Below are positions 13,559 through 32,000 of a stretch of 32,000 nucleotides of DNA, in pieces; within the stretch, counting starts at the first letter, position 1, and the number at the start of each line of letters is the position of its first letter. The DNA is from Gilvimarinus chinensis DSM 19667. GTDB taxonomy: Bacteria; Pseudomonadota; Gammaproteobacteria; Pseudomonadales; Cellvibrionaceae. The notes under the pieces are model-generated. The model was not told where the DNA came from, made no database searches, and was given only the letters and a program-made list of their open reading frames with translations. The translations under genes were made by a program, and so were the position numbers. The DNA is taken from positions 66,718 through 98,717 of the forward strand of contig NZ_KB898707.1 of NCBI RefSeq assembly GCF_000377745.1, in the 5' to 3' direction.

Positions 13559-13645
13559 GTCGACTGGATCGCTCGGCTTTTAAGCGGGTAGTTGGTTTGG
13601 TACTTACTCGTTTAATATTTCGGAATTCTTGGGGCAAATACCGTT

Positions 13646-16129: not shown

Positions 16130-16182
16130 ATATTAGGATGCATCCTCCGCTCCAAGATCATAATAACGTTAGAGAGGCACAG

Positions 16183-17946
16183 ATGAATAAACTCACCTGC
16201 ACATTCGCAGCACTGCTTACCAGTGCATCTACGTTTGCCGCCGATTGGGATGGCTTACCGGTTCCCGCCGATGCCGGCAGCGGCAACACTTGGCAACTAC
16301 AAAGTAACGTATCGGACGACTTTAATTATTCCGCTCCCGCCAATGGAAAAAGCGCAGCGTTTTACGACCGCTGGTCCGAAGGCTTTATTAACGCCTGGCA
16401 AGGCCCTGGGTTAACTGACTACCACAATCCCAACTCCAGGGTGGAAAACGGCAAGCTAGTCATCCAAGCCACCCGCAAACCCGGCACCAACCAGGTGTAC
16501 ACGGGCGCTGTGCACACCCATGACAGTATTCAGTATCCGGTTTATATCGAAACCAGCAGTAAAATTATGGATCAGGTGCTGGCCAATGCCGTGTGGATGC
16601 TTAGCAGCGACTCCACCGAAGAGATCGACATTGTTGAGGCTTACGGTAGCAGCCGCCCTGATCAAACCTGGTTTGCCGAGCGCATGCACTTGGCTCATCA
16701 CGTTTTTATTCGCGATCCGTTTCAGGATTATCAGCCCAAAGACATGGGCGCCTGGTACGCCGATGGTCGACTGTGGCGCGATCAGTACAGCCGCGTAGGG
16801 GTTTACTGGCGCGACCCGTGGCACCTGGAGTACTACATTGATGGCGAGCTTGTGCGCACGGTATCCGGTGTGGATATGATTGATCCTTACGGTTACACCA
16901 ACGGCACTGGTTTAAGTAAGCCCATGCAAATTATTGTTGATGCGGAAGATCAGGACTGGCGCTCTGACAATGGTATTGTTGCCACCAATGCTGAACTGGC
17001 CGATAGCAGCAAAAACCAGTTTTATGTTGATTGGATTCGCGTTTACAAACCGGTACCAGACGCCAATGGTGGAAATAATGGCGGCGGTAACGACATTACC
17101 AGCAGTGTCGACTTTGATAACTTTTTTGCCACTGGCAAAGTAGGCAACGCTGTTGCCGGTGATAGTTTTACTGGTTTTAACCCATCGGGTAACGGCAACA
17201 TCAACTACAACACCGTAGGCGATTGGGCCGAGTACAGCATCAATCTACCCGAGGCCGGTGAGTATCGTCTGGAGCTGGACACTGCTTCCACTGTGAGCTC
17301 AGGCCTCGGCGCCGACATCAGTATCGATGGTGTGTTTGTCGGTAGAGTTGCTATCTCGCAAACCGGCGGTTGGGAGAGCTACCAAACGTTTAGCCTTGCC
17401 AACACGATCAACATCGGTGCCGGCACTCACACTCTGCGTGTACAAAGCGCAGGCAGCTCGCAGTGGCAATGGAACGGCGACACGATTCGCATGGTTAAAG
17501 TGGGCGAAAGCTCAAGCGGCAACCAAACAACCACGCCTACACCCACCGAAGCGATCAGCCTGGAAGCCGAAAGCTTTAACAACACTGGCGGACCCTACGG
17601 CGGCTTCCAAACCTATACTCAAAATGGTATTTCAGCCACCAACTACAACCAGCGTGGCGATTACGCGGAGTACAGTCTGTCGGTACCGACCGCGGGCAAC
17701 TATAACGTAAGTGCTTTTGCCGCCACCCCCGAGACCGGTTCAGCCATGACGCTAACGCTAAACGGCAACGCCCTGGTCAGCTTAGACGTACCCACAACCG
17801 GCGGCTGGAACACCTTTACCGAGGTGAGCTCGAGCGGCGCTGTTGCCTTGCCCGCAGGTACTCATACTCTACGAGTAGCCAGCTCCGGTAACACTGCCAA
17901 CACCTGGGAGTGGAACGCCGACCGTTTTATATTTACACCGCAATAA
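16183..17946 (+). CDS. GH16 beta-agarase with two C-terminal CBM6 modules
   Basis: ATG 16183 has AGAGAGG upstream, and the TTG 16108 of the track is rejected. The signal peptide is MNKLTCTFAALLTSASTFA-ADWDG. The catalytic motif EEIDIVE (E-x-D-x-x-E) is at 16621-16638. Agarase-type blocks include FYDRWSEGFINAWQGPGLT and GVYWRDPWHLEYYIDG. A Gly/Asn linker is followed by two similar modules of about 130 aa (about 17098-17502 and 17551-17943) with GDWAEYSINLPEAGEY / GDYAEYSLSVPTAGNY and GTHTLRV in both. Confidence 0.9.
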   Translation: MNKLTCTFAALLTSASTFAADWDGLPVPADAGSGNTWQLQSNVSDDFNYSAPANGKSAAFYDRWSEGFINAWQGPGLTDYHNPNSRVENGKLVIQATRKPGTNQVYTGAVHTHDSIQYPVYIETSSKIMDQVLANAVWMLSSDSTEEIDIVEAYGSSRPDQTWFAERMHLAHHVFIRDPFQDYQPKDMGAWYADGRLWRDQYSRVGVYWRDPWHLEYYIDGELVRTVSGVDMIDPYGYTNGTGLSKPMQIIVDAEDQDWRSDNGIVATNAELADSSKNQFYVDWIRVYKPVPDANGGNNGGGNDITSSVDFDNFFATGKVGNAVAGDSFTGFNPSGNGNINYNTVGDWAEYSINLPEAGEYRLELDTASTVSSGLGADISIDGVFVGRVAISQTGGWESYQTFSLANTINIGAGTHTLRVQSAGSSQWQWNGDTIRMVKVGESSSGNQTTTPTPTEAISLEAESFNNTGGPYGGFQTYTQNGISATNYNQRGDYAEYSLSVPTAGNYNVSAFAATPETGSAMTLTLNGNALVSLDVPTTGGWNTFTEVSSSGAVALPAGTHTLRVASSGNTANTWEWNADRFIFTPQ

Positions 17947-20317: not shown

Positions 20318-20344
20318 TTTGTAGACAATTTACATTGTGTCAAT
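20318..20344. promoter_or_regulatory. Degenerate copies of the TTGTATACAA-type palindrome upstream of the GH50-like gene
   Basis: TTTGTAGACAAT (20318-20329) differs by one nt from the 12-mer at 16107-16118. ATTGTGTCAAT lies at 20334-20344. Confidence 0.3.
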
Positions 20345-20400: not shown

Positions 20401-22719
20401 ATGACCTTAAAGCCTTTAGCGTTGGCCGTTGCCATAAGCGCAGCGCTCGGCAGCGCCTGTACTAGCCACAACGCCAACACTGACGACTCCACCCAGCGCA
20501 CGAGCGGGCAGCTTGCGCCGCAGGAACTTCCGACCATCCTGGTGGACATTACCCGCGCTCAACAGCAAGGGTGGCTCACCGCAAATCAAGCGCAGCTGAA
20601 GCCAACGTCGGGTACAACACTGAATATACGTTTTCCCGCCTCGGTGCACACTCCAGCATTTAATATAGAGCCGAACACCCCATGGGATTTATCAAACCTC
20701 GATAATTACAACCTGGCCTTTGAGGTACAAAACCTCTCACCGGTATCAACCCACTTTTACGTCGAGCTGTTCGACGCCAACGGCAGCAGCCAGTCGCGCG
20801 AGCTGAGCATCCCCAAAGGTTATCAAGGCAAAGTGTTTTTCCCGCTGGCGGGCGAGAAAGCCGCCACCGATAAAGGCATGTGGGCCAACCCTATGCCCTG
20901 GCCCACCGACGAGATGAAAATGGTGTGGCGTTCTTGGCACCAAACCTTGGACATGAGCCAGATCACTAAAATCTCAGTTTACGCCATTGGCGTGTTGCAG
21001 GATCGTACGCTTGAGATCGGGGATATTGTGCTGCGCCCCAACCCGGATGCAGGCGCTGATTGGACTACCCACCTGGTAGATCGCTTCGGTCAGGCGGCCA
21101 AAAAGAACTCGCCCCTTAAAGTCGAGTCCGAGACTGAACTTAAAGCCATCGCCGAGCGCGAACTCAAACAGCTAGCCGAGCAACCGGGCCCCAAAGATCG
21201 CTCGCGTTTTGGCGGCTACAAAGATGGCCCCAAGCTTGAAGCGACCGGCTACTTTCGCACCGAAAAAGTCGATGGCAAGTGGTGGATGGTAGATCCGGAA
21301 GGCTATTTGTTTTTCTCGCATGGTCCGGCCAACGTGCGCATGTCTAACCTCACCACCCTAACCGGGGTAGACTTTAAAGACCCTTCGGTACGCGTGGTAC
21401 ACGCCGATGAGGTGACCCCGGAAGATTCCATGGGTATTGTGAAAGTGTCGGACGAAGTGCGCGAAAGCCGCTATGTGATTAACGAGACTCGCCACGATAT
21501 GTTTGAATGGCTACCCGCTTACGACGACCCTCTGGCCGATCACTACAGTTACCGCCGCTCGACCCATAAAGGGCCGGTGCCCCACGGTGAAACTTACAGC
21601 TTTTACCGTGCCAACCTGGAGCGTCGCTATGGCGAAACCGCGCCCGAATCCTACGTGAAAAAATGGGAAGAGGTAACCCTAGATCGTATGAACAGCTGGG
21701 GCTTTACCTCGTTTGGCAACTGGGTGGACCCGGCGTTTTACCCCAACCAACAAGTACCCTACTTTGCCAACGGCTGGATTATTGGCGACTATCAAACGCT
21801 GTCGGGCCACACCAACCACTGGGGCCTGATGCCCGACTTTTTTGACCCGGTATTTGCCGAGCGCGCCCGTGCCACCATTGAAGTTATTGCCCAAGATGTA
21901 CAGGCATCGCCCTGGTGTGTGGGTATTTTTATCGATAACGAAAAAAGCTGGGGAGAGCGTGAAGGCAGCGTTGCAGAGCGCTACGGGGTGATTCTCGACG
22001 CCCTGAGCAAAGACGCCGCTCAAAGCCCCGCCAAACAAGCCTTTACCGAACGCTTAAAAGCACAATACTCCAGCATTAAAGCGTTAAACCGTGCCTGGAA
22101 TACCGACTTTAGCAACTGGAACGAGTTTGCGCAAAACGCCAGCACCGAGGAACACTCTGAGGCGCAAGTGGCCGACTTATCAATGCTGCTAGAGGCGCTG
22201 GGCGAGCAGTACTTTGAGGTGGTACACGGCACCCTTAAAGAGTACCTTCCCAATCACCTGTACATGGGCGCGCGTATGGCCAACTGGGGTATGCCCGATG
22301 AGATCATTAAAGCCTCGGTGAAATACACCGACGTACTCAGCTTTAATATTTACGAAGAAGGCATGCAAACTCACCAGTGGAGCTTCTTAGAAAAGATTGA
22401 TCTGCCCGTAGTTATCGGCGAATTTCATATAGGCGCGACCACGGATTCAGACAACTACCACCCGGGTATTGTTAGCGCCGCCAGCCAAAAAGACCGTGCG
22501 CGAATGTATAAAGCTTATATGGAGAGCGTACTCGAGAAAGATTACATGGTAGGAGCGCACTGGTTTCAGTATGTGGATGAGCCTGTTACCGGCCGCGCTT
22601 TTGACGGTGAAAACGCCAATATTGGTTTTGTCACGGTAACCGACATCCCCTACCCCGAGATGATCAAAGCCGCCAAGGAAATTAACTACAACCTCTACCC
22701 CAAACGCTACGGTCAGTAA
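20401..22719 (+). CDS. GH50-like beta-agarase (lipoprotein)
   Basis: 772 aa with lipobox AALGSAC and RBS AAGGA. An N-terminal beta-sandwich-like region is followed by GYFRTEKVDGKWWMVDPEGYLFFSHG. The TIM-barrel blocks are SWGFTSFGNW, VGIFIDNEKSWG (acid/base Glu candidate) and VVIGEFH (nucleophile Glu candidate). Family assignment is from memory of GH50 agarases and the genomic context. Confidence 0.65.
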   Translation: MTLKPLALAVAISAALGSACTSHNANTDDSTQRTSGQLAPQELPTILVDITRAQQQGWLTANQAQLKPTSGTTLNIRFPASVHTPAFNIEPNTPWDLSNLDNYNLAFEVQNLSPVSTHFYVELFDANGSSQSRELSIPKGYQGKVFFPLAGEKAATDKGMWANPMPWPTDEMKMVWRSWHQTLDMSQITKISVYAIGVLQDRTLEIGDIVLRPNPDAGADWTTHLVDRFGQAAKKNSPLKVESETELKAIAERELKQLAEQPGPKDRSRFGGYKDGPKLEATGYFRTEKVDGKWWMVDPEGYLFFSHGPANVRMSNLTTLTGVDFKDPSVRVVHADEVTPEDSMGIVKVSDEVRESRYVINETRHDMFEWLPAYDDPLADHYSYRRSTHKGPVPHGETYSFYRANLERRYGETAPESYVKKWEEVTLDRMNSWGFTSFGNWVDPAFYPNQQVPYFANGWIIGDYQTLSGHTNHWGLMPDFFDPVFAERARATIEVIAQDVQASPWCVGIFIDNEKSWGEREGSVAERYGVILDALSKDAAQSPAKQAFTERLKAQYSSIKALNRAWNTDFSNWNEFAQNASTEEHSEAQVADLSMLLEALGEQYFEVVHGTLKEYLPNHLYMGARMANWGMPDEIIKASVKYTDVLSFNIYEEGMQTHQWSFLEKIDLPVVIGEFHIGATTDSDNYHPGIVSAASQKDRARMYKAYMESVLEKDYMVGAHWFQYVDEPVTGRAFDGENANIGFVTVTDIPYPEMIKAAKEINYNLYPKRYGQ

Positions 22720-22737
22720 CCGCTTGGGCTCACTTTA

Positions 22738-22762
22738 CCCCGCCCACGGGCGGGGTCTTTTT
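22738..22762 (+). terminator. Rho-independent terminator after the GH50-like gene
   Basis: CCCCGCCC (22738-22745) pairs with GGGCGGGG (22748-22755), followed by TCTTTTT (22756-22762). Confidence 0.8.
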
Positions 22763-22801: not shown

Positions 22802-25180
22802 TTATGGCGCGTTAAAATCTGCTGCTTTGTAGGGCGTAGCTCGCCCTTCGGTTTTAGCGCGTACCTTAGCAACCTCAGCTTCGGTATAGGCACTGCCAGA
22901 ATCCAACGTATTGCCCCAACTGTTGCGAATGTAAGTAGCAATAGCGGCCAAGCCCTTATCACTAATATCCGCCCGAGCGGCAAAGCCCGGCATCACCGCT
23001 TGGGTATTCCAGTAGTGCACATCCACCCAAATTGGGCCGCTTAAGCCGTGTAACAAGACTTTAGCCAAGGTCTCTTTATTGCTTACCCACTGGCTGTTCC
23101 AAAAGGTTGGCCCCAGCCCCGGCACCCCATTACCGTGCTCACCATGGCAACCGGCGCAGGCGGTGCGACCATTGTACAGTTTTTTGCCCTGGTCATAGAG
23201 CGCTTTACCCGCCGCGGAGAGTTGCTCGCGGTTGGTAGCATCCTGACGTTTTCTGCCCAGATTATTGAGTGCATACATTACCTCTGCATCTGGGTAGTCG
23301 CCATCAAGGCTGGCTATAAAAGCGTCGGCATCGTCGCCCAAGCCACTGATAACCGCCTTGCGGGTGTAGGGTTTCTCAAGATAGGTGTCTAACACCTGCT
23401 TTGACACATCGGTACCACCTTTAATGGCCGATACCGATATAGCCGCCTGCAATGCGCGCGGATAACCCGACTGCGCGAGATTGAGCAACAGCGTGTGATA
23501 TGTTTTGTGATCTTTTTGGGGCAAGGATTCCCCGACCGCAGCGGCCGCCATGGCCACATGGTCGTTTTCACTATTTATAAAAGCTTTAACCGTGGCAAGA
23601 TCGATTTCGTCCAAACCGTATAGGGTCCAAAGACTATTCACAATGCCCACAGGATCTTGTAATTGTTCAAGCTGTTTGCGAATCAATGTCGCACTGGACC
23701 TAGCATTGCGCTCTACCAATAACCGACGCGCGGTATCTCGCTGCCAGGCGTTAGGGTGTGCCAGTAAGGCAACTAAATCGCCGTTGTTAGCCGCCGCTAG
23801 GTTGGGCACTTTAGCCGCGTCATTGGCCTGCCAGCGCAAACGGTAAATACGCCCTATGGTGTTATTGTTTTTGTCCAGTTCGCGGTCATCAATTTGCGCC
23901 GCAAGATAACTGGTTAAAAACTCTTTGTGCTGCAAGATGCCGTGGTACATATCCAGTATGTACACCGTGCCGTCGGGCGCATTGTACAAATTAACGGGCC
24001 GAAAACGCTCATCCGTCGAGGTAAACAACTCTTGCTCGGGGTAAACGGGCTTGCCCGTAAGCTCCCCTTTCCCTTCGTTAATAAAACGTGCACTGATTAA
24101 ATTGGCGGCGGGCTCCGGGGTTAACCCCATACCGTAAAACTTTTGCGGGAAATTACTGCCACGGTACACCAGGCTGCCACTGGCGGCGGTGAAGCCTACA
24201 AGCTTGCCGCGGTCAGGCCCCTCGGCCACCAGCATGCCCTCCATATAACCGCGGTTAATGCCGGGGTTCATACGGCCCGGATAAACGTAAATATCACCAA
24301 TAGAATGGGCCGGCATTTCGGGCCAATAACCCGGGTTTTTTCGCAGCGAACCCGGTCGTAGATACTCACCATGAATAGGCGAACTATTGCCGTTGTGATA
24401 CAGACGCCCATAATCATCCATGCTTAAGCCCCACTGGCCGCGATAATCCGTTTCGGCGCGCACCAACTTCCAGTACTGATTGCGATAAATCTCTTCGCCA
24501 CCTTCTGGCAGCTCAGCCCTAAGCGGCAGTGTCTGATATTTTTTGTTGCTTTTTGCGTTGTAATACCAATTGTCGATACCGTAGAGCATGGTATTGGGTT
24601 TGTGCTCAACATTGCCGCCCTCAGCGTACGTCGGGTCCACCACCTCACGAATACCCGGGGTTAGAACACCGTCTTTTTCCAGCACCTCGGTAAAGTACAG
24701 GGATGTATGGTCCGCGTAAAAAATACCTCCTTCCACCAGTGAAATCGTGCGCGGCAAAATAATATCGCTAAGGAAAATACGACGCTTATCGACAACACCA
24801 TCGCCATCGGTGTCTTCGAGCACAGCGATATTACCCTCGGGCTTCATCTCCCCGTTACCGCGTACATCGGGCATATAGGTGGTCATCTCGGCCACCCACA
24901 TCCGGCCTTTGGCATCAAAACTCATGGCAACCGGGTTAAACACATTGGGCTCTGAAGCCACGGGCTCCACCACAAACCCCGGCTGTAGGTTAAAGCTTTT
25001 TAGCGCCTTCTCTACGCTCAGTACCGGCGCTTCGGGAATTTCGTGTTTAGGGATAACATCGCGCATTTCATGACCGTCGCGATCCCCTTTAAAGCCTGTA
25101 TCCGACTCTTCGGCCACGACCGTCATTGCGCCCAGTAAAACCACGCTTAAGGCGGGCACAATACGTCTTAGCAGTTTCAT
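22802..25180 (-). CDS. PVC-type heme-binding CxxCH protein: membrane-bound-dehydrogenase-like beta-propeller, HEAT-like region and C-terminal cytochrome c
   Basis: I prefer ATG 25180 (MKLLRRIVPALSVVLLGAMTVVA signal peptide), 1 nt after the stop of the upstream gene. The N-terminal blocks are FNLQPGFVVEPVASEP..NPVAMSFDAKGRMWVAE and DTDGDGVVDKRRIF. The C-terminal heme site is CAGCHGEHGNG. Confidence 0.8.
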   Translation of the reverse strand: MKLLRRIVPALSVVLLGAMTVVAEESDTGFKGDRDGHEMRDVIPKHEIPEAPVLSVEKALKSFNLQPGFVVEPVASEPNVFNPVAMSFDAKGRMWVAEMTTYMPDVRGNGEMKPEGNIAVLEDTDGDGVVDKRRIFLSDIILPRTISLVEGGIFYADHTSLYFTEVLEKDGVLTPGIREVVDPTYAEGGNVEHKPNTMLYGIDNWYYNAKSNKKYQTLPLRAELPEGGEEIYRNQYWKLVRAETDYRGQWGLSMDDYGRLYHNGNSSPIHGEYLRPGSLRKNPGYWPEMPAHSIGDIYVYPGRMNPGINRGYMEGMLVAEGPDRGKLVGFTAASGSLVYRGSNFPQKFYGMGLTPEPAANLISARFINEGKGELTGKPVYPEQELFTSTDERFRPVNLYNAPDGTVYILDMYHGILQHKEFLTSYLAAQIDDRELDKNNNTIGRIYRLRWQANDAAKVPNLAAANNGDLVALLAHPNAWQRDTARRLLVERNARSSATLIRKQLEQLQDPVGIVNSLWTLYGLDEIDLATVKAFINSENDHVAMAAAAVGESLPQKDHKTYHTLLLNLAQSGYPRALQAAISVSAIKGGTDVSKQVLDTYLEKPYTRKAVISGLGDDADAFIASLDGDYPDAEVMYALNNLGRKRQDATNREQLSAAGKALYDQGKKLYNGRTACAGCHGEHGNGVPGLGPTFWNSQWVSNKETLAKVLLHGLSGPIWVDVHYWNTQAVMPGFAARADISDKGLAAIATYIRNSWGNTLDSGSAYTEAEVAKVRAKTEGRATPYKAADFNAP

Positions 25181-25181
25181 G

Positions 25182-25880
25182 CTAGTGCTCTTCGATGGAA
25201 ATATTGCGGAATTTAACGGTATAGGCGGTATCGCCAGTTTGCGCAAAGCCCTGACTGCCGTGATGCTGAATGCCGATAAAGCCTTCGCTTAGGTGTGTAT
25301 CCTTAACGTGGGTGGTTAACACGTCGTTCACCCAGATTTTTATGTCGGGCCCACGGGCGCTAATTTTGTAATGGTTCCATTGACCTGCTTTAAACGCGGC
25401 GGCTTTCTCTTCTGTCCACTCGGGCGAATAGTTTTCTTTTAGGTGCTCGCCTGGCGCCGAGCGCTCTGGGTGCGCGGGAAACAACCACTGCCGCGGGGTC
25501 GCCTGCTCGTATAAACCGCCGCTCCAGCGGCGATCGGAAGGATCTACCTCGGCCTGGTAACCGTAGGCAAACTGACTATCAATATCGGCTGAATACTCGG
25601 TTTGCGCGCGAAAAATAATACCCGAGTTAATAAACTCACCCTCCACCTCGGGAACCAACACCTCAAGTTCCAGAGTAAAGTCCCGGTAGCGCTTTTTGGT
25701 AAGCAAAAACCAATTATCGCTTGAGAGAAGATGTATCTCGCTACCCAGCCAGTGGGCCTCGCCAAACGACGATACATTCATCCACAGGTTTTGATCATGA
25801 GTAATATCGACCGGTTCGGCCGATACAGAAAGGCTTTCCATCGCACTCAGCAGTACGGCCGAAAGCAGCGATTTGCACAT
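25182..25880 (-). CDS. DUF1080 (3-keto-disaccharide hydrolase family) secreted protein
   Basis: 232 aa with a signal peptide. The blocks are LLTKKRYRDFTLELE, NSGIIFR, YGYQAEVD, WSGGLY, GQWNHYKISARG, IKIWVND, GFIGIQHHG and VKFRNISI. Confidence 0.85.
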   Translation of the reverse strand: MCKSLLSAVLLSAMESLSVSAEPVDITHDQNLWMNVSSFGEAHWLGSEIHLLSSDNWFLLTKKRYRDFTLELEVLVPEVEGEFINSGIIFRAQTEYSADIDSQFAYGYQAEVDPSDRRWSGGLYEQATPRQWLFPAHPERSAPGEHLKENYSPEWTEEKAAAFKAGQWNHYKISARGPDIKIWVNDVLTTHVKDTHLSEGFIGIQHHGSQGFAQTGDTAYTVKFRNISIEEH

Positions 25881-25900
25881 CGTTTATCCTTATTATTTTG

Positions 25901-26557
25901 TTAGTTGCAGGTCACCTTCTCGGGCGGAAAAGCCGCCAGTCGAGCGCCAGATATTTCCAGTTCTAAGTTCCCGTCAGTATGCAACAACATCATAGAGGTG
26001 AGCTTGGTGAAGTCAATATCCCCCCCTTTAAAGCATTGTAAAGGCAGAGGTAGGCTCACCCACTCTTTTTTTGGCAACTTGCGCAATACGCTTTTTAGTG
26101 GAATAGAGGCCCGGGTCTCCCAATCCCAGTTGCTCTCAAGCGACATAGTCACATGATCATTGGGCCGTTCGAGCACCTTAAGGTCGACCACCAGGGCCGC
26201 CTGGTCTTTAACCTCGGCCAAGTCGATGGAACCAGAGGTGTTAATTAAGGTAACGGTGGACACCGCTTCGTTCTGACCACCCCAGTCGGTCAGCACTTTC
26301 TTTTTGTTCCAGGTAAAACGCACAGCATCACCGTTTTTATCGCGTTTAGCGGGCTCTGCTACTAAACTATTTTTTACCGTGGCACCGGCTTTGTTCTCCA
26401 ATAACACCTGTCCAAACTGCAGGCTTAGCTCCCAGGGTTTGACAGCCTCACCCTGATCAATATAAAAAATATTATGATTCAGCGGTTCTTCGGCATTGGC
26501 GTTTAACGCTAAACAGGCTATCGCGACGATAGTCATCATGTGTTTTATTGTTTTCAT
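25901..26557 (-). CDS. Secreted protein of unknown function; possible galactose-binding-like beta-sandwich
   Basis: 218 aa with signal peptide MKTIKHMMTIVAIACLALNANA. The C-terminal WVSLPLPLQCFKGGDIDFTKLTSMMLLHTDGNLELEISGARL resembles glycan-binding accessory domains of exo-glycosidases (weak, from memory). It lies 18-20 nt from both neighbours. Confidence 0.55.
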   Translation of the reverse strand: MKTIKHMMTIVAIACLALNANAEEPLNHNIFYIDQGEAVKPWELSLQFGQVLLENKAGATVKNSLVAEPAKRDKNGDAVRFTWNKKKVLTDWGGQNEAVSTVTLINTSGSIDLAEVKDQAALVVDLKVLERPNDHVTMSLESNWDWETRASIPLKSVLRKLPKKEWVSLPLPLQCFKGGDIDFTKLTSMMLLHTDGNLELEISGARLAAFPPEKVTCN

Positions 26558-26575
26558 GTTTCACCTCAATATCAA

Positions 26576-29500
26576 TTAATGTCCGACAGTATTTTTTTGT
26601 CCTTTTTGGTTTGCTAAAAACTCAACGATATCCCTGACATTCTCTTTCTCGAGCATTAGCCCCATTGGCGGCATGCCGGAGCCTGAGAAGCTCTGCGAAA
26701 CAATGGCCTCGCGGGGGATGACCTTTTCATCATCGGCGTCGGTCACTACCGTGATACTGGCATCACTCTCGGCGATAAAACGTCCCTCTATCACCTTTCC
26801 ACTGGTGAGCGTTACGCTGGTGCGACCAAACCCCGGGGCTACCCGCGCGCCCGGGGCCACCATCGCCTCGATTAACTGACGGCGTGTTAGGCGGCTACCA
26901 ATATCGGTAAGCTCGGGCCCCACTGGTGAACCAAAATCGCCCATCACATGACAACGAATACACTGGGCCGTGGTGTTGTAAAAGAAAAACAGTTTGCCCA
27001 TATGGGCATCCCCGCCCTTTAGTGTCTCGATATACTGGGCGGTCATATCACCGGCGGGTTTAGTTTGCTGATACGCCTGCAACAATGTTTGCACCTTGGC
27101 GCTTTGTTTAGTGCCTGCCGCCTGCACCAACTCCAGCTGTACCTCGGGGGCAATACGATCGTCCAACAACGCTTGCAGTTGCCGTGCAATTAAAGCATCA
27201 GCTTCGGGAGCATTAATTTTTGCCAGCGAGGTGTAAGTTTCTTGCTGCTCGCCAAAGCCGCCTTTTTGCAACAACAGCTGGTACATTTGCACTTTGTCGG
27301 CGACGGCAATATCCAGCTCGGGTATCAAACCCAGCGCGGCGCGGCGTACACTCTCGGCGCTGTCTTCTAGCGCTAAAAACACCGCCGCTTTGAGGTCGCT
27401 AAAATCCAACCGGTGCAAGTTCTCCAGCGCCGCGCGGCGCACCCCGGCCGCGCTGTCTTCTTGCACCAAAGCGGCCAAGGTAGCCCCTGCCTCACGGATA
27501 CCCAAACGGCCCACGGCATTGGCGGCCGCCTCGCGCAACTCTGGCTCGGGAGCCTTAAGCAAACTGGCGTATTGAGGCTCAAGCGCCGCCACCGCGATAG
27601 TGGCCTCGGCAGGTCGCTCACCCCGGTAAATACCACTCACCCGGTCGTAAACAGACGGCTTTTGCCACACGCTTAAGGCATTGAGCGCCTCGGCGCGTAC
27701 CACCGCCGAATATTGTTTGTTCGATGCAAAGGCCACCAACCGCTGCGCACTTTGCGCATCGGCTATAAACGCGTTGGCGTTAATCGCACGGCGCAGTAAA
27801 GGCTCGTTGCTAAAGTGTGGAGCGGGCAACAACTGAGCCAGCGCCGGTAGCGCTTCTTCGACAAACGTAGCGTCGTTAATAGCTCGGGCAGCGTTGGTTA
27901 CTACATACTGGTTATCGTCCTGTAAAAATTTAGCAAGCTGCGGGCTCGCCAGCCGGTTTAACGCAATAACCGCGGCCACACGTACCGCTACCGAGGGGTG
28001 CTCGGCTAACTCACCCAAGGCTTGCTCTTGCCCTAAACGCGCCAAGGCAATGGCACCTGCCTGGCGCAGGTAGACATCACTGTCGTTGTTGTCCTGCAGC
28101 ATCGCCACAATCGCCGCGAAGGATGAGGTCGCACCAATGCGCCCCAGCGCCTGGGCGGCAAACATCCGCACTCGCGCGTTAGGGTGGGTCAGATTATGAC
28201 GCAACGCGGATTCTGCGTTTGGATAAGGCGTATCACCCAGCACCTTGGCGGCCTGCACCCGGATCTCGTCATCGGTGTCTTGCAGCAAGGGCACTAACGG
28301 TTCGGCAAGCTGTGGGTCGTGCCGCGCCAACTGGCCCAACCCCCAAATGGCGTGAATACGCCCCAGTTGCGACTCATCCGTCAAGGCCGCCATCAGGCTT
28401 TGCTGGTCACCGCGCTCCGCTAACTCAAACTGCGCTTTACTGCGCACGCGCTGATCGGGGTGGGATAAATAGGCCGTTAACTGTGTAGCGGTCAGCTCGT
28501 TAAACGATTGTTGCAATAGCTGCTGGGTTTGCGCTCGCAATGAGTGCGGTGTATCGGCATCCAGTTTCCAGATACGACCGGTATTATTAACTTTCCAGCC
28601 ATCGACCCAGTCGGCCGCATAGAGCGCACCGTCCGGGCCTACATCCAGGCCTGTCGCCTGGATGCCGCGCAAAAAGGTTTTATCTTCGCCGAGCTTAAAG
28701 CCGGCGCCGTCGGGCTCTAAGGTAAAAGCGTTAATACCCGAGTTGCCGGGCGAGCCGGTAAACTGAACCAGAAAAAAGTAATCTTGCCACGTCTCATTTA
28801 GCGCTGTGCCTGGGTTATAAACCATGCCGGTAGGGCCGCCGTAGAACGGTTTAATCGGCGGTAATATCAGTGCCGACTGTTCGGCAAATCGGCTTTTGTG
28901 GTAGCCCTCATCGGTCCAGACTTTGTAGCTGTTATTGGTGGGGTCAGTGTATTTGCCAAATTGCCAGTGGGTGCGCCAGCCGGTATCCGACCCATCTATC
29001 AAATACACCAACCGCTCAAACTCACCGGCATGATCGCCGTCGTTATCAGAGCTAATTAAATTTCCGTATTTGTCGAAGGTAAATTCATGGGTATTACGCA
29101 GGCCTGTGGCAAAAACCTCAAAGTTGCTGCCATCGGGCTCACTGCGCACAATCACTCCCTCGTGCAGGTGCTTGTGACGCTTGCCTTCCAAATCGGTAAT
29201 GTCGGCACCGATGTCGCCTACGCCATAGTAGATACGCCCATCAGGGCCTTTAGTGACCCCAGACATATTATGACCACTAAAGCCGATGTGTACGCCAAAA
29301 CCCTCGGCCAGGGACATTTTCTGATCCAGATAGCCATCGCCGGTGCTGTCACTAGCGCGCCAGGCGTTGGGGGCGACGGTTAAATAGACCGAGTCGGTGG
29401 AGTTATCGTAGTAAACGCCCCCCAGCACATCACTCACCAGCGATGAAAAGTCCTCTAACACGGTTTGAGCCCGATCGGCGTACCCGTCTCCATCGGTGTC

Positions 29501-30016
29501 AGATACTTTTAACACTTCTTCTTTGATGACCGCCAAGTCGCGCCAATCATGCTTCCCATCGCTATTGCGATCGGGGACATCGTCCGGCCCCAAATTGTTG
29601 GACTCAGCAAAGAATTGTTTTAAAAATTCAGCGCGCTCGGCCACCGAAGTAAACGACAATGTATCGGCGTGCCACTGGGGCCAGCCACGAATATCAAATT
29701 CAGAATTATTGCTGCGGTTAGTTACTGCTACCCATGCATTACCCTGCCAGTCCATGCTCAGGGCGACAGGATCACCTAATAACTCATTATCAGCCCAAAG
29801 GTCTATGCTCAGTGAATGCTCGAGCTCTACTGGTGTTTGCCGACTCACGTCTAAAGCCGATCTATGCACATCCTCACGGCTTAACTGAACCACCTTGTCC
29901 AAGCGTTGACCGTCGCCAAGTGTTATCGGTGAAAGTTGCAAGCCGCAACATAAGATTAAACAGCGAATCGGTACAAGATGGTCTACTAAGCCCCCAAGGG
30001 TATTTTTTTTTATCAT
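26576..30016 (-). CDS. Large PVC-type heme-binding CxxCH protein: dehydrogenase-like beta-propeller, long HEAT-repeat region and C-terminal cytochrome c
   Basis: ATG 30016 has GGAG 8 nt upstream (the track uses TTG 30022). The N-terminal blocks are DPVALSMDWQGNAWVA, DTDGDGYAD, GLRNTHEFTFDKYGNLISSDNDGD and YGGPTGMVYNPG. A central array has many HEAT-like repeats (VRVQAAKVLG, VRMFAAQALG, VRVAAVIALN, VRRAALENL, VRRAALGLI). The C-terminal heme site is CIRCHVMGDFG. Confidence 0.8.
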   Translation of the reverse strand: MIKKNTLGGLVDHLVPIRCLILCCGLQLSPITLGDGQRLDKVVQLSREDVHRSALDVSRQTPVELEHSLSIDLWADNELLGDPVALSMDWQGNAWVAVTNRSNNSEFDIRGWPQWHADTLSFTSVAERAEFLKQFFAESNNLGPDDVPDRNSDGKHDWRDLAVIKEEVLKVSDTDGDGYADRAQTVLEDFSSLVSDVLGGVYYDNSTDSVYLTVAPNAWRASDSTGDGYLDQKMSLAEGFGVHIGFSGHNMSGVTKGPDGRIYYGVGDIGADITDLEGKRHKHLHEGVIVRSEPDGSNFEVFATGLRNTHEFTFDKYGNLISSDNDGDHAGEFERLVYLIDGSDTGWRTHWQFGKYTDPTNNSYKVWTDEGYHKSRFAEQSALILPPIKPFYGGPTGMVYNPGTALNETWQDYFFLVQFTGSPGNSGINAFTLEPDGAGFKLGEDKTFLRGIQATGLDVGPDGALYAADWVDGWKVNNTGRIWKLDADTPHSLRAQTQQLLQQSFNELTATQLTAYLSHPDQRVRSKAQFELAERGDQQSLMAALTDESQLGRIHAIWGLGQLARHDPQLAEPLVPLLQDTDDEIRVQAAKVLGDTPYPNAESALRHNLTHPNARVRMFAAQALGRIGATSSFAAIVAMLQDNNDSDVYLRQAGAIALARLGQEQALGELAEHPSVAVRVAAVIALNRLASPQLAKFLQDDNQYVVTNAARAINDATFVEEALPALAQLLPAPHFSNEPLLRRAINANAFIADAQSAQRLVAFASNKQYSAVVRAEALNALSVWQKPSVYDRVSGIYRGERPAEATIAVAALEPQYASLLKAPEPELREAAANAVGRLGIREAGATLAALVQEDSAAGVRRAALENLHRLDFSDLKAAVFLALEDSAESVRRAALGLIPELDIAVADKVQMYQLLLQKGGFGEQQETYTSLAKINAPEADALIARQLQALLDDRIAPEVQLELVQAAGTKQSAKVQTLLQAYQQTKPAGDMTAQYIETLKGGDAHMGKLFFFYNTTAQCIRCHVMGDFGSPVGPELTDIGSRLTRRQLIEAMVAPGARVAPGFGRTSVTLTSGKVIEGRFIAESDASITVVTDADDEKVIPREAIVSQSFSGSGMPPMGLMLEKENVRDIVEFLANQKGQKNTVGH

Positions 30017-30196
30017 TATCAATTCTCCACATAGTTATACTTTTACGTATAGCTATTAACAGCCAAAATTTAATTATTAAAGCTTATGATTCTTGAGCGC
30101 AAAGTCGGTTGAAGAGAGTGACATAATAACCCTCACCCCGAATCCGAACTTTGGTCGATTTGCGTCCGCCATTTCTAATACTTTATCCCACACCCA

Positions 30197-30244
30197 TTTT
30201 GTATACAATCTTCTATTGACAATGATTGTATTATCTTCGATTAT
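30197..30244 (+). promoter_or_regulatory. Candidate operator (TTTTGTATACAAT) next to a candidate promoter of the TonB-dependent receptor gene
   Basis: The 13-mer at 30197-30209 is identical to 16106-16118. TTGACA lies at 30216-30221, then a 17 nt spacer, then GATTAT at 30239-30244. Confidence 0.35.
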
Positions 30245-30362
30245 CTACATTGGGACACAAAGAATGCGGGCTAATACCGATAAACCGCGCCCTACTTGCT
30301 AATCTTCGTCATAGTTTTGGCGGTTAAAGCATAAAAATAATGAACAATCAGAGAGGTCAGAG

Positions 30363-32000
30363 ATGTCTAACATCACCCAACGCTTCAAATTGACCGCGCT
30401 TTCGGCTGCCATACTGGCCAGCCACGGGATAGGCGCCTACGCTCAAACAGATTCAGACCCTGCTGCCGATGAACTGGTACTTGAAGAAGTCGTGGTTCGT
30501 GGTATCCGCGGCGCGCTGCAAAAGTCCATCGACAATAAACGCGATGCTCAGCAGATAATGGATACCATTAACTCTGAGGATATGGGTAAAAACACCGACC
30601 AAAACATTGCCGATGCTCTGGGTCGCGTTACCGGTGTTTCCGTGGTAAGCCGAGATGGTGAAGGCTCGACCATTACCGTCCGTGGTGCTGGTGCGAACCA
30701 AAACAACATTACTCTGAACGGCCAACAACTGACCTCCACTGACTTTAGCCAGGCGGTCGATCTAAGCGCTTATTCATCGGATATTCTTTCTAAACTGGAG
30801 GTGATTAAAACACCTAGCGCAGACCAAGACGAAGGCTCGCTGGGGGCGACCGTGAACCTGGTCACCGTGCGTCCGCTTGACAAAGCCGATGACGAGTTCA
30901 CCGCGACGATTCAGGGGCGCTACAACGACTTTAGTGAAAAAGATAACTACAAACTGCAATTGGCGGGCTCTAAAAAGTTTCTTGATGACACTTTTGGTGT
31001 TGCCTTAACCGCTTATACAGAAACCAACGATTATCGAAAAGATCAGTATCGAACAGGAAAATGGGAAGAACAAGATATAAATATTGCACGTGACCAAGAT
31101 GGCAATATCATCTCTGGAATCCGTGCGCTTACTCCAAGCGGCATAAACTATGAGCTCTTTGATAATTCCAGTGAACGCTACGGTGGTACCGTAGGCTTAC
31201 AATGGGCTCCCACCCACCGTACCGAGCTTAGCTTTGACGCGACCTATGCCAACCAAACAACCGAACAAAACTATGACGGTTTTTCGCTGCGCATGGGTAC
31301 TGACCCAAACTTGATCGAAAATCAAAATTGGAGCCAAAACTACCCCGATCAGGTCGCTAGTTTTACCGACCCTCAAGAAGATTGGTGGACCGTAGATACC
31401 AATACTCTTACCTTAGTCGAACAAGTTAACCGCTATAGCATTGGCGACATAACCCGCTCCGAAGGTGGCAATGAGCAAGAAAATGCTAGCGCCACCCTTC
31501 GCTTTGAACAAGAAATTACCGACAAGTTTCGCATGTCGGCCATGGCCGGTTACTCCAGCAGTACATCTGAGAGCCTACCAAGCCGCTACACCAACATGCA
31601 AAACTGGAAACAAGTACCTTCCAACATTCTGTTTGAAGCAGGTCAAGAAATTGAACCAGTAGGCTATCAATGTCATGGCGATGTTTGCACCCCAGTATTT
31701 GGTAGCAGCTACGTCGACCTGGGTGACAACCTTTTAGACTTCACCGACCCAGAAACTGGCTTACCTTTGCCAGGCTCTGACGATAATACCGCTTACACCG
31801 GCTTCAACCCAAATGACTTAAACAGTTTCCATTTAGGCAGTATTTCAGAAGCCGACGTAACCGTAGAAGACACCATCAGCAATGTGCAACTGGACTTCGA
31901 TTACGATTTAGATTTTGCTGGTATTACCACCATCGAGTTTGGAGGCAAAATAAGCCAGCGTGAAAAACTCGTCGATCAACAAAACTACACCTACAACTCT
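30363..32000 (+). CDS. TonB-dependent outer-membrane receptor (carbohydrate-scavenging type), C-terminus beyond the window
   Basis: Absent from the track because it is open at the right edge. My translation from ATG 30363 (RBS AGAGAGG) reads MSNITQRFKLTALSAAILASHGIGAYA (signal peptide), then the plug domain LEEVVVRGIRGALQKSIDNKRDAQQIMDTINSEDMGKNTDQNIADALGRVTGVSVVSRDGEGSTITVRGAGANQNNITLNG. The frame is open to 32000. Confidence 0.9.
   Translation, partial: MSNITQRFKLTALSAAILASHGIGAYAQTDSDPAADELVLEEVVVRGIRGALQKSIDNKRDAQQIMDTINSEDMGKNTDQNIADALGRVTGVSVVSRDGEGSTITVRGAGANQNNITLNGQQLTSTDFSQAVDLSAYSSDILSKLEVIKTPSADQDEGSLGATVNLVTVRPLDKADDEFTATIQGRYNDFSEKDNYKLQLAGSKKFLDDTFGVALTAYTETNDYRKDQYRTGKWEEQDINIARDQDGNIISGIRALTPSGINYELFDNSSERYGGTVGLQWAPTHRTELSFDATYANQTTEQNYDGFSLRMGTDPNLIENQNWSQNYPDQVASFTDPQEDWWTVDTNTLTLVEQVNRYSIGDITRSEGGNEQENASATLRFEQEITDKFRMSAMAGYSSSTSESLPSRYTNMQNWKQVPSNILFEAGQEIEPVGYQCHGDVCTPVFGSSYVDLGDNLLDFTDPETGLPLPGSDDNTAYTGFNPNDLNSFHLGSISEADVTVEDTISNVQLDFDYDLDFAGITTIEFGGKISQREKLVDQQNYTYNS

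What the first reader, a model, noticed from the sequence alone, without database searches (positions are those of the whole stretch)
22802..30016. Four-gene operon of two heme-c-linked dehydrogenase-like beta-propeller/HEAT proteins, a DUF1080 protein and a small secreted protein inside an agarolytic locus, a candidate periplasmic oxidative glycan-processing system
The four genes are separated by 18, 20 and 1 nt, and all products carry signal peptides.
- Proteins 1 and 4 belong to the poorly understood Planctomycetes/Verrucomicrobia-type family. This family combines a sorbosone/glucose-dehydrogenase-like propeller (the membrane-bound dehydrogenase domain), HEAT repeats and a C-terminal CxxCH cytochrome c domain (CIRCH, CAGCH).
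- Protein 3 is DUF1080, the family named for 3-keto-disaccharide hydrolase.
- Protein 2 looks like a glycan-binding beta-sandwich.

A sugar dehydrogenase wired to heme c, next to a hydrolase family that acts on 3-keto-glycosides, suggests a mechanism. Glycosides would be oxidised in the periplasm, then cleaved, with electrons passed to the respiratory chain.

The operon lies between a GH50-like agarase and a TonB receptor, shares the receptor's divergent control region, and carries the GTATAC-type repeat. That points to agar or red-algal galactan fragments as substrates. To my knowledge no member of this gene combination has an experimentally defined role.
Basis: partly seen in the sequence, partly recalled or inferred. 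Interest (0 to 1): 0.7.

Follow-up and report, generated by a model that had tools for sequence, protein, structure and literature searches.

The report
Haem-linked sugar dehydrogenase operon beside agarases
A real four-gene operon in an agar-degrading Gilvimarinus bacterium joins two separately inherited gene pairs that most likely oxidise sugars in the periplasm and pass the electrons to respiration, but only one pair is tied to agar and no activity has been shown.

Summary
Four co-directional minus-strand genes (22802-30016), with gaps of 18, 20 and 1 nt, lie between a GH50 exo-beta-agarase and a TonB receptor in Gilvimarinus chinensis.

- **g1 and g4** have a six-bladed propeller of the soluble PQQ glucose dehydrogenase/AA12/HHIP fold, a HEAT-like solenoid and a C-terminal CxxCH cytochrome c domain. 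The catalytic His and a PQQ-binding Arg of sGDH align with invariant residues.
- **g3** is a DUF1080 protein.
- **g2** is a CBM-like beta-sandwich.

The operon is a composite of two modules.

- **g3-g4** are adjacent in every close ortholog locus examined, mostly without agarases. In two Lentisphaerae loci the g4 ortholog sits in an operon with DUF1080, GFO/IDH/MocA and a xylose-isomerase-like TIM barrel. That is the enzyme set of the known 3-keto glycoside-cleavage pathway.
- **g1-g2** occur with GH50 only in Gilvimarinus and one Marinimicrobium strain. g2 homologs travel with the TonB receptor.
- A 12-bp palindrome shared by the GH16, GH50 and receptor promoters supports local co-regulation with the agarases.

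A respiration-coupled sugar-oxidising role is plausible. The oxidised carbon, the cofactor and the agar substrate are inferred. One family member was reported as a beta-galactosidase, on weak evidence.

The parts
26576..30016 (-). g1: exported, probably lipid-anchored, sGDH-fold propeller + HEAT repeats + C-terminal c-type haem domain (1146 aa)
   Evidence: Pfam DUF7133 5e-24, HEAT_2 9e-37. TIGR02603 80.2 bits against a cut-off of 68.15; TIGR02604 119.9 against 122.2. hhalign against sGDH E 1.1e-5. 100% identical to a G. chinensis protein. Family lipobox.
29270..29272 (-). g1 His249, candidate catalytic base (aligns with sGDH His144)
   Evidence: hhalign; invariant in 51 homologs; coordinates.
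29093..29098 (-). g1 Arg307-Asn308, aligned with the sGDH Arg228-Asn229 cofactor/substrate motif
26948..26962 (-). g1 haem-binding motif CIRCH
   Evidence: (C1019, C1022, H1023 invariant).
25901..26557 (-). g2: secreted CBM-like beta-sandwich (Exop_C), 218 aa
   Evidence: Pfam Exop_C 1.8e-17. AF2 pLDDT 85.8. Foldseek matches: ExoP domain X, CBM30 and the GH50 CBM-like domain. Homologs lie next to orthologous TonB receptors.
25182..25880 (-). g3: secreted DUF1080 (PF06439) protein, 232 aa
   Evidence: Pfam 2e-32. Closest PDB entry 4jqt, 1.1e-32; BT2157-type 8tda only 1.8e-3. Adjacent to the g4 ortholog in six other loci.
22802..25180 (-). g4: secreted sGDH-fold propeller + short helical solenoid + C-terminal cytochrome c (792 aa)
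   Evidence: DUF7133 1.9e-81 and Cytochrom_C. TIGR02604 181 bits. AF2 pLDDT 91, pTM 0.87. Foldseek. The cytochrome c domain resembles that of RpNiR, 4.7e-22.
24602..24604 (-). g4 His193, candidate catalytic base (aligned to g1 His249 and so to sGDH His144)
   Evidence: hhalign of A2 against A6; at least 90% conserved; coordinates.
24428..24442 (-). g4 RGQWG motif (Arg247 invariant), counterpart of sGDH Arg228; Gly replaces Asn229
23144..23158 (-). g4 haem-binding motif CAGCH
30017..30362 (.). Divergent control region between g1 and the TonB receptor gene
   Evidence: A promoter-like site for the receptor lies at 30216-30244.
30198..30209 (.). Palindromic operator-like site TTTGTATACAAT, also at 16107-16118 and 20318-20329
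   Evidence: Conserved in the same positions in G. agarilyticus and G. polysaccharolyticus.
30363..32000 (+). TonB-dependent receptor (N-terminal 546 aa; 1227 aa in full), divergent from g1
   Evidence: TIGR01782 1.6e-83; Plug; full length. Orthologs lie next to g2 homologs.
20401..22719 (+). GH50 exo-beta-agarase, convergent with g4
   Evidence: 4bq2 E 1.5e-228; Agarase_CBM.
22737..22756 (+). GC-rich hairpin between the convergent GH50 gene and g4 (terminator-like)

Best explanation
The operon joins two periplasmic modules built around haem-linked sugar dehydrogenases.

**g1 and g4.** Each has a six-bladed propeller of the soluble glucose dehydrogenase (sGDH)/AA12 type. Each keeps a counterpart of the sGDH catalytic histidine and of a cofactor-binding arginine. 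Each also has a helical HEAT-like spacer and its own c-type haem. I infer that they oxidise a sugar or glycoside, probably with PQQ. Electrons would pass to the fused haem and on to the respiratory chain.

**g3.** This DUF1080 protein is the conserved partner of g4. I infer that the pair works in the oxidation-elimination-hydration ('3-keto') route of glycoside cleavage. Either g4 makes the keto-glycoside that g3 cleaves, or g4 oxidises the sugar that g3 releases.

**g2.** This is a carbohydrate-binding-module-like protein tied to the agar-type TonB receptor and, in this lineage, to g1.

**Recruitment.** In Gilvimarinus both modules have been placed in the agarase regulon, so the local substrates are probably agar or red-algal galactan fragments.

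**Shown:** fold, motifs, haem sites, export signals, synteny and the shared operator.

**Inferred:** cofactor, substrate, oxidised position and the electron route.
For: - **Fold.** The AF2 model of g4 (pLDDT 91) matches HHIP, AA12 and sGDH best.
- **Homology to sGDH.** The g1 family aligns to sGDH at E 1.1e-5 over 173 columns. His249 aligns with His144 and Arg307-Asn308 with Arg228-Asn229. All three are invariant in 51 homologs.
- **g4 linked to g1.** The two families align at 98.4% probability, placing g4 His193 and Arg247 on the same columns. His193 is at least 90% conserved and Arg247 is invariant.
- **A further sGDH-like motif.** In the pairwise alignment, g4 DERFRPV..APDG aligns with sGDH NNRYRDV..SPDG, which includes Arg406 and Arg408.
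- **Haem domains.** They are homologous to electron-transfer cytochrome domains or subunits of Cu-nitrite reductase and of alcohol, fructose and FAD-glucose dehydrogenases. CxxCH and the distal Met-Pro are invariant.
- **g3 next to g4.** They are adjacent, from a 4-nt overlap to a 64-nt gap, in L002, L003, L004, L007, L008 and L083. DUF1080 is the commonest upstream neighbour across 74 loci of the wider family (8 of 74).
- **Pathway context.** In two Lentisphaerae loci the g4 ortholog is in an operon with DUF1080, GFO/IDH/MocA and AP_endonuc_2. These are the families shown biochemically to carry out the 3-keto pathway.
- **Precedent.** A periplasmic cytochrome-linked glycoside 3-dehydrogenase working with DUF1080 is known.
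- **g2.** It is CBM-like and tracks the receptor.
- **Co-regulation.** The operator is shared with the GH16 and GH50 promoters and is conserved in three species.
Against: - No PQQ or haem chemistry is shown.
- PF07995 is not hit by g1 or g4. hhalign of the g4 family directly against sGDH fails (0.8% probability).
- g4 has Gly where sGDH has Asn229.
- The known sGDH/AA12 reactions oxidise C1, which does not give a DUF1080 substrate (my own knowledge).
- g3 is only remotely related to the characterised BT2157 type. It carries Q-x-E where distant DUF1080 proteins have E-x-Q. DUF1080 also overlaps the lectin-like CBM66.
- The Lentisphaerae operons already encode a GFO-type dehydrogenase, so g4 need not be the 3-dehydrogenase.
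- g3-g4 usually lie outside CAZyme loci.
- Most distant family members have unrelated neighbours.
- The only biochemical report for the family describes hydrolysis of lactose.
Confidence: 0.45

Rival explanations
1. g1 and g4 are ordinary sGDH-type aldose dehydrogenases. They oxidise the anomeric carbon of free sugars or reducing ends released by the agarases (D-galactose, 3,6-anhydro-L-galactose, neoagarobiose) to lactones and feed electrons to respiration. There is no 3-keto chemistry. g3 serves as a lectin-like binder or has an unrelated role.
For: - The fold and the aligned catalytic His/Arg are those of C1-oxidising enzymes.
- AA12 enzymes prefer L-fucose/L-galacto-type sugars (my own knowledge).
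- DUF1080 overlaps CBM66.
- GntP, MFS and sugar transporters recur next to distant homologs.
- JGI names homologs 'quinoprotein glucose dehydrogenase'.
Against: - It does not explain the tight, conserved g3-g4 coupling.
- It does not explain the co-operonic GFO/IDH/MocA and TIM-barrel genes in Lentisphaerae.
- g3 keeps the NSG and Q-x-H motifs of the DUF1080 catalytic channel.
Confidence: 0.25
2. The propeller proteins are non-redox glycoside hydrolases (beta-galactosidase-like), as reported for Lac161_ORF7. On this reading they act on agaro-oligosaccharides, and the haem domain plays no part in catalysis.
For: - Lac161_ORF7 has the same TIGR02604 + HEAT_2 + cytochrome c architecture as g1. 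It was reported to hydrolyse lactose with Km 1.8 mM.
- The family is treated as putative beta-propeller glycoside hydrolases in planctomycete genome papers.
Against: - The enzyme was made in the lacZ+ host BL21(DE3)pLysS with IPTG and purified in a single Co-NTA step. It was assayed by a glucose oxidase/peroxidase read-out. Its Km is close to that of LacZ. Host contamination is therefore not excluded (my inference).
- No glycosidase catalytic motif was found by those authors.
- The conserved haem site and the sGDH-like His/Arg are unexplained by hydrolysis.
Confidence: 0.08
3. The haem-propeller proteins act on a non-carbohydrate substrate or serve only as electron carriers. Their position beside agarases in Gilvimarinus is then a lineage-specific accident of gene order.
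For: - Most distant homologs have housekeeping neighbours.
- g3-g4 in Marinimicrobium agarilyticum sit among a beta-lactamase-like gene, an SDR and hydrolase genes.
- HHIP, the top fold match, is not an enzyme.
- The left half of the window shows signs of mobile DNA.
Against: - The linkage to DUF1080 is conserved, as is the linkage to 3-keto-pathway genes and a sulfatase.
- g2 is CBM-like.
- The operator is shared with agarase promoters in three species.
- g1-g2 lie next to GH50 in a second genus.
Confidence: 0.12

Closest known systems
LacABC-type periplasmic glycoside 3-dehydrogenase plus DUF1080 (Caulobacter crescentus, Agrobacterium, Pedobacter)
   Same: It oxidises sugars in the periplasm, sends electrons out through a c-type cytochrome, and has a secreted DUF1080 protein encoded next to it.
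   Different: Its catalytic subunit is an FAD GMC oxidoreductase with separate cytochrome and small subunits. Here there is no such gene; a sGDH-fold propeller is fused to its own haem domain.
BT2156-BT2160 / AL1-AL4 oxidation-elimination-hydration glycoside cleavage pathway (Bacteroides, Alistipes)
   Same: A DUF1080 component is present. Orthologs of g4 in Lentisphaerae are co-operonic with all three hallmark families: GFO/IDH/MocA, xylose-isomerase-like TIM barrel and DUF1080.
   Different: That pathway is NAD-dependent and redox-neutral, with no cytochrome. The window has neither a GFO gene nor a TIM-barrel gene. g3 belongs to another DUF1080 subfamily.
Soluble PQQ glucose dehydrogenase (Acinetobacter sGDH, 1C9U) and aldose sugar dehydrogenases
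   Same: It has a six-bladed propeller. The catalytic His144 and Arg228(-Asn229) align with invariant residues of g1 and g4.
   Different: Sequence similarity is marginal and PF07995 is not hit. sGDH has no HEAT or haem domains and oxidises C1. PQQ binding is untested here.
AA12 pyranose dehydrogenase (Coprinopsis cinerea quinohaemoprotein; Trichoderma reesei AA12, 6i1q)
   Same: It is an sGDH-fold propeller, combined in CcPDH with a cytochrome domain and a carbohydrate-binding module (my own knowledge). 6i1q is among the top fold matches.
   Different: It is eukaryotic, with an N-terminal b-type cytochrome and CBM1 rather than a C-terminal c-type haem and HEAT repeats.
PVC-type heme-binding CxxCH proteins (TIGR02604/TIGR02603, Pfam DUF7133), including Lac161_ORF7
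   Same: g1 and g4 are members. g1 has the same three-part architecture as Lac161_ORF7.
   Different: The family has no accepted function. The single report of beta-galactosidase activity is not secure.
ExoP C-terminal domain X / CBM-like domain of GH50 agarases
   Same: g2 shares the fold (3f95, TM 0.74; 4bq2/4bq3) and matches Pfam Exop_C.
   Different: g2 is a free-standing secreted protein, not a domain of a glycosidase. Binding has not been tested.

Membership tests
PVC-type heme-binding CxxCH protein (TIGR02604 N-terminal domain / Pfam DUF7133) | N-terminal domain model above its curated cut-off | tested here: met
   g4: TIGR02604 181.1 bits against 122.2; DUF7133 274.8 against 27. g1: DUF7133 85.7 against 27, but TIGR02604 119.9 is just below 122.2.
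PVC-type heme-binding CxxCH protein | C-terminal CxxCH haem-binding domain (TIGR02603) | tested here: met
   g1: TIGR02603 80.2 bits against 68.15, motif CIRCH. g4 has CAGCH but matches generic Cytochrom_C, not TIGR02603.
PVC-type heme-binding CxxCH protein | HEAT-type helical repeats between propeller and haem domain | tested here: met
   g1: HEAT_2 with five stretches, 9e-37. g4: helices 466-639 in the AF2 model, aligned to the g1 HEAT region.
Soluble PQQ-dependent glucose/aldose dehydrogenase (sGDH, PF07995; AA12) | Six-bladed beta-propeller of this superfamily | tested here: met
   Foldseek: 3ho5 1.3e-7, 6i1q 1.4e-6, 8re0 5.9e-6, 2ism 1.4e-5.
Soluble PQQ-dependent glucose/aldose dehydrogenase | Family sequence model (PF07995) matched | tested here: not met
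   No PF07995 hit for g1 or g4 at E <= 0.01. A few g1 homologs carry a precomputed PF07995 hit.
Soluble PQQ-dependent glucose/aldose dehydrogenase | Catalytic His (His144) and Arg228-Asn229 | tested here: met
   g1 His249 and Arg307-Asn308 align with them and are invariant. g4 His193 and Arg247 align through g1, but Asn is replaced by Gly. The roles of these sGDH residues are recalled from the literature.
Soluble PQQ-dependent glucose/aldose dehydrogenase | Binds PQQ and Ca2+ and oxidises aldoses | not testable with these tools
   Needs cofactor reconstitution and assays.
DUF1080 / 3-keto-disaccharide hydrolase family (PF06439) | Family model above cut-off | tested here: met
   g3: 113.2 bits against 26.8.
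DUF1080, BT2157-type 3-keto-glycoside lyase/hydratase | Conserved channel residues (Glu103, Asn134, Glu164, Gln166, Tyr190, Lys245, Gln273, His275 of BT2) | tested here: inconclusive
   g3 has NSG (Asn85) and Q205-H-H207, which fit Asn134 and Gln273-x-His275. It has Q-x-E where distant DUF1080 proteins have E-x-Q. The mapping is by motif only. BT2157-type PDB entries match at only about 2e-3.
LacABC-type glycoside 3-dehydrogenase system | FAD-dependent GMC catalytic subunit | tested here: not met
   No such domain was found among the window's ORFs of at least 150 aa that were scanned.
LacABC-type glycoside 3-dehydrogenase system | Cytochrome c electron outlet and a neighbouring secreted DUF1080 | tested here: met
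   Fused haem domains. g3 is adjacent, with a signal peptide.
BT2156-2160-type oxidation-elimination-hydration pathway | GFO/IDH/MocA dehydrogenase and xylose-isomerase-like TIM-barrel lyase in the locus | tested here: not met
   Absent from the window. Present with g4 orthologs in L009 and L090.
Exop_C / CBM-like beta-sandwich (g2) | Family model and fold | tested here: met
   Exop_C 64 bits against 26.1. 3f95 E 2e-8, TM 0.74.
Exop_C / CBM-like beta-sandwich (g2) | Binds a glycan | not testable with these tools
   Needs binding assays.
Lac161_ORF7-type 'beta-galactosidase' | Hydrolyses beta-galactosides | not testable with these tools
   Only the shared architecture could be checked. The published assay has caveats.

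The most novel reading that the evidence does not exclude
DUF7133-haem c proteins would be a new class of respiration-coupled glycoside dehydrogenases built on the sGDH fold. Paired with a DUF1080 lyase/hydratase, they would form a minimal two-protein, non-hydrolytic glycosidase in the periplasm. In Gilvimarinus this system would be turned on agar or sulfated galactan oligosaccharides. That would assign a function to a very large uncharacterised family of PVC bacteria, Bacteroidota and marine Gammaproteobacteria.
Probability: 0.22. Interest if true: 0.8.

Novelty: new variant of a known kind. Interest (0 to 1): 0.55.

Why it matters
The DUF7133/TIGR02604 family is large: more than 4,000 proteins pass E 1e-10 among the 8,000 candidates scored, and single planctomycete genomes carry about 20 copies. 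It has no accepted function.

The evidence gathered here gives a concrete, testable assignment: a sugar dehydrogenase wired to respiration and linked to the recently described 3-keto route of glycoside cleavage. That evidence is the sGDH-type catalytic residues, the fused c-type haem, the conserved coupling to DUF1080, and the co-operonic GFO and TIM-barrel genes.

If correct, three things would follow.
- Aerobic polysaccharide degraders would gain energy directly from periplasmic glycan processing.
- The fate of 3-keto sugars or the source of 3-keto-glycosides in organisms lacking LacABC could be explained.
- The joint expansion of the propeller, DUF1080 and GFO families in Planctomycetes could be explained.

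For agar degradation specifically, it would add an oxidative branch to a pathway described so far as hydrolytic.

Tried and rejected
- **GTATAC as a repeat.** The hexamer occurs 5 times against 5.05 expected, so enrichment is rejected. Only the 12-bp palindrome is meaningful.
- **Direct comparison with sGDH.** BLAST of g1 and g4 against sGDH gave nothing significant. hhalign of the g4 family against sGDH gave 0.8% probability over 23 columns. A global pairwise alignment was reliable only around the RGQWG and RFRPV motifs.
- **PDB profile search with the g4 family.** Only the cytochrome domain matched; there was no propeller hit.
- **Failed look-ups.** P0026 (Catenovulum) and P0031 (Saccharobesus) were not on record.
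- **One four-gene conserved unit.** Rejected by synteny.
- **Conserved agarase linkage of g3-g4.** Rejected.
- **Literature.** Searches for DUF7133, 'PVC-type heme-binding' and TIGR02603 found no functional study beyond Lac161_ORF7. The Paraglaciecola hydrolytica agar locus paper does not mention cytochrome, haem, quinoprotein, DUF1080, SapC or halogenase. Searches on Gilvimarinus agarases and on quinoproteins in agar loci found nothing about this operon.
- **Promoter and terminator scan.** No convincing promoter for the operon and no internal terminators above background.
- **tRNA search next to the integrase.** None found.

Full report
**1. What is in the sequence**

The region holds four co-directional genes on the minus strand.

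| Gene | Coordinates | Length |
|---|---|---|
| g1 | 26576-30016 | 1146 aa |
| g2 | 25901-26557 | 218 aa |
| g3 | 25182-25880 | 232 aa |
| g4 | 22802-25180 | 792 aa |

- The gaps are 18, 20 and 1 nt.
- g1-g3 have Shine-Dalgarno-like motifs. The g4 ATG follows the g3 stop by one base, so translational coupling is likely.
- No internal terminators stand out above background. A GC-rich hairpin lies between g4 and the convergent upstream gene.
- g2 and g1 are 100% identical to Gilvimarinus chinensis proteins, so the window comes from that species.
- The same arrangement, receptor <-> g1-g2-g3-g4 <- GH50, occurs in G. agarilyticus and G. polysaccharolyticus.

**2. The surroundings are agarolytic**

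- 20401-22719 is a GH50 exo-beta-agarase (Aga50D, 4bq2, E 1.5e-228).
- 16108-17946 is a GH16 beta-agarase with two CBM6 modules (3wz1, 6.5e-129).
- 30363 onward is a TonB receptor of the TIGR01782 type, 1227 aa in full.
- Between the agarases lies an FdhF/YdeP-family molybdoenzyme.
- The left half of the window is unrelated. It carries Tus, HipA, an integrase, FG-GAP/ASPIC proteins and a low-GC stretch.

**3. The proteins**

*g4*
- It matches DUF7133 (1.9e-81) and Cytochrom_C, and TIGR02604 above its cut-off.
- Its AF2 model is confident (pLDDT 91, pTM 0.87). It shows a beta-propeller (about 60-450), a helical solenoid (466-640) and a cytochrome domain.
- The best Foldseek matches to the propeller are HHIP, Trichoderma AA12, Acinetobacter sGDH and Thermus TTHA0570. 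The haem domain superposes on that of the three-domain Cu-nitrite reductase at 1.8 A.
- A profile of the g4 family finds only cytochrome domains in the PDB. These include the cytochrome subunits of alcohol, fructose and FAD-glucose dehydrogenases.

*g1*
- It has a weaker DUF7133 match, five HEAT_2 stretches and the TIGR02603 haem domain.
- I recalled the sGDH sequence and confirmed it as identical to PDB 1C9U.
- A profile of 51 g1 homologs aligns to sGDH with 81.6% probability and E 1.1e-5 over 173 columns. This puts g1 His249 on the catalytic His144 and Arg307-Asn308 on Arg228-Asn229. All three are invariant in the family.

*g1 and g4 compared*
- The two families align at 98.4% probability over 502 columns. 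This puts g4 His193 and Arg247 on the same columns, but with Gly in place of the Asn. His193 is at least 90% conserved and Arg247 is invariant.
- g4 DERFRPV..APDG also aligns with sGDH NNRYRDV..SPDG, which includes Arg406 and Arg408.
- The roles of these sGDH residues are recalled from the structural literature, not tested here.
- Directly, g1 and g4 share only 32 bits, so they are old, divergent subfamilies.
- Haem ligands are invariant in both: CxxCH plus a Met-Pro motif.
- Most g1 homologs have a lipoprotein signal. g2, g3 and g4 have plain signal peptides.

*g3*
- It is a DUF1080 protein (2e-32).
- Its nearest solved relative is the uncharacterised 4jqt (1.1e-32). BT2157-type entries such as 8tda match only at about 2e-3.
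- It keeps an NSG motif and Q205-H-H207. These fit Asn134 and Gln273-x-His275 of BT2.
- It has Q-x-E where the distant DUF1080 proteins in my alignment have E-x-Q.

*g2*
- It matches Exop_C.
- Its model (pLDDT 85.8) resembles ExoP domain X, CBM30, CBM16/4/11, surface glycan-binding proteins and the CBM-like domain of GH50 agarases.

**4. Synteny shows two modules**

I collected 80 genome loci with a profile of g4 orthologs and searched them with the window's proteins.

*The g3-g4 pair*
- A g3 ortholog lies immediately upstream of the g4 ortholog in L002, L003, L004, L007 and L008, and in Marinimicrobium agarilyticum (L083). The spacing runs from a 4-nt overlap to a 64-nt gap.
- g1, g2, GH50 and the receptor accompany the pair only in Gilvimarinus. 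In M. agarilyticum the pair sits among unrelated genes.
- In the wider family (34-42% identity), DUF1080 is the commonest upstream neighbour (8 of 74). Most neighbours are unrelated, and no trend was seen downstream.
- In a Lentisphaerales genome (L009) and a Lentisphaera contig (L090) the g4 ortholog ends an operon. Its order is DUF1080, transporter, (sulfatase), GFO/IDH/MocA, xylose-isomerase-like TIM barrel, g4 ortholog.
- These three families are the ones shown to carry out oxidation, elimination and hydration of glycosides in Bacteroides and Alistipes.

*The g1-g2 pair*
- It recurs in Marinimicrobium sp. ARAG 43.8 next to GH50 and the YdeP-like gene, without g3-g4.
- Other g1 homologs stand alone (L088) or face a DUF1080 gene (Cellvibrio, L089).
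- g2 has few homologs (22).
- In Paraglaciecola aquimarina and in a metagenome contig, g2 homologs sit beside an orthologous receptor (53-54% identity), SapC and a tryptophan-halogenase-like gene. In Paraglaciecola they also lie near a GH50 gene.

So the operon is a lineage-specific fusion of a g1-g2 module (agar-linked), a receptor-linked binder and a widely conserved g3-g4 module.

**5. Regulation**

- The hexamer GTATAC is not enriched.
- The 12-mer TTTGTATACAAT occurs exactly at 16107 (GH16 upstream) and 30198 (receptor/g1 region), and with one mismatch at 20318 (GH50 upstream).
- ATTGTATACAAT sits in the receptor/g1 spacer in both G. polysaccharolyticus and G. agarilyticus. Upstream of GH50 it is exact in G. 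polysaccharolyticus, while G. agarilyticus has the one-mismatch form ATTGTCTACAAA there. It is absent from g3-g4 loci of other genera.
- It abuts a promoter-like site for the receptor. Control of the receptor is therefore the safer reading, and control of the operon is possible.

**6. Literature**

- A periplasmic FAD glycoside 3-dehydrogenase with a cytochrome subunit works with DUF1080 in Caulobacter. The fate of the 3-keto sugar is unknown.
- BT2157 acts on 3-keto-trehalose. It has since been re-described as a 3-keto-alpha-glucoside 1,2-lyase and hydratase.
- A protein with the g1 architecture, Lac161_ORF7, was reported as a beta-galactosidase.
- That protein was produced in a lacZ+ host under IPTG, purified in one step and assayed with glucose oxidase/peroxidase. 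I therefore treat the claim as unconfirmed.
- Planctomycete genome papers count TIGR02604, DUF1080 and GFO-family genes as jointly expanded 'hidden glycoside hydrolases'. That joint expansion fits the pathway link proposed here.
- I found no paper proposing a DUF7133-DUF1080 system.

**7. Verdict**

Most likely (0.45): these are periplasmic, haem-linked sugar dehydrogenases of the sGDH fold. g4 works with DUF1080 in the 3-keto route, and g1-g2 were recruited with the receptor to agar utilisation.

The main rival (0.25) is plain C1 oxidation of released sugars. Hydrolase (0.08) and non-glycan (0.12) readings are less likely.

The finding is a new variant of a known kind of system. It is of moderate to good interest because it offers a testable function for a very large orphan family.

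Noticed in passing
window 16107-16118, 20318-20329, 30198-30209; L002 4832 and 14797; L082 4975 and 14821: A 12-bp palindrome, (T/A)TTGTATACAAT, lies in the promoter regions of the GH16 agarase, the GH50 agarase and the TonB receptor/g1 spacer. It is conserved in the same places in two other Gilvimarinus species. It is probably the operator of an unidentified agar regulon repressor or activator.
   Followed up: partly
window 18039-20231 (-); L082 14919-17108; L087 18289-19180; L007 12478-14670: An FdhF/YdeP-family molybdopterin oxidoreductase (652 bits, above its cut-off) sits next to GH50 in Gilvimarinus and in Marinimicrobium ARAG 43.8. In an uncultured Gilvimarinus it lies directly after a g3-g4 pair (93% identity). 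Its role beside agarases is unexplained.
   Followed up: partly
window 9721-15926: A HipA-like toxin gene (9721-10995), an HTH protein (12057-13238) and a tyrosine integrase (14754-15926) lie in a stretch of lower G+C (0.40-0.46). No tRNA gene is nearby. This may be an integrated element bordering the agarase cluster.
   Followed up: partly
window 8437-9417 (-): A Tus (replication terminus-binding) gene suggests that the window lies near the chromosome terminus.
   Followed up: no
window 2186-5887; L087 1-2406 and 12170-15289: An FG-GAP/ASPIC protein is followed by a vanadium-chloroperoxidase-like protein in the window. Large FG-GAP/ASPIC proteins also flank the g1-g2 pair in Marinimicrobium ARAG 43.8.
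   Followed up: no
L087 11159: The g1 ortholog of Marinimicrobium sp. ARAG 43.8 has a frameshift just after its CxxCH motif. The rest of the haem domain continues in another frame at 64% identity. This is either a recent pseudogene or an assembly error.
   Followed up: yes
L086 18475-20657: A ThuA-like gene lies directly next to another DUF7133 gene. ThuA belongs to the trehalose-to-3-ketotrehalose system (my own knowledge), so this is a further hint of a link between DUF7133 and 3-keto-sugar metabolism.
   Followed up: no
L089 8001-12379: In Cellvibrio zantedeschiae a g1-type homolog (52% identity) is convergent with a 276-aa DUF1080 gene and a short-chain dehydrogenase. The long g1 subfamily can therefore also neighbour DUF1080.
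   Followed up: no
P0023: G. chinensis carries a second g4 paralog (66% identity) elsewhere in its genome, so the agar-locus copy is not the only one.
   Followed up: no
L045, L048, L050, L052 and other Bacteroidota loci: Five distant g4 homologs have a concentrative nucleoside transporter (CNT family) gene as their upstream neighbour, and six have an MFS transporter. The meaning is unknown.
   Followed up: no
window 25533-25568 (g3 residues 105-116): g3 and 4jqt carry Y-Q-x-E-h-D where distant DUF1080 proteins carry E-x-Q. This is an apparent swap of two putative channel residues that marks a separate DUF1080 subfamily.
   Followed up: partly
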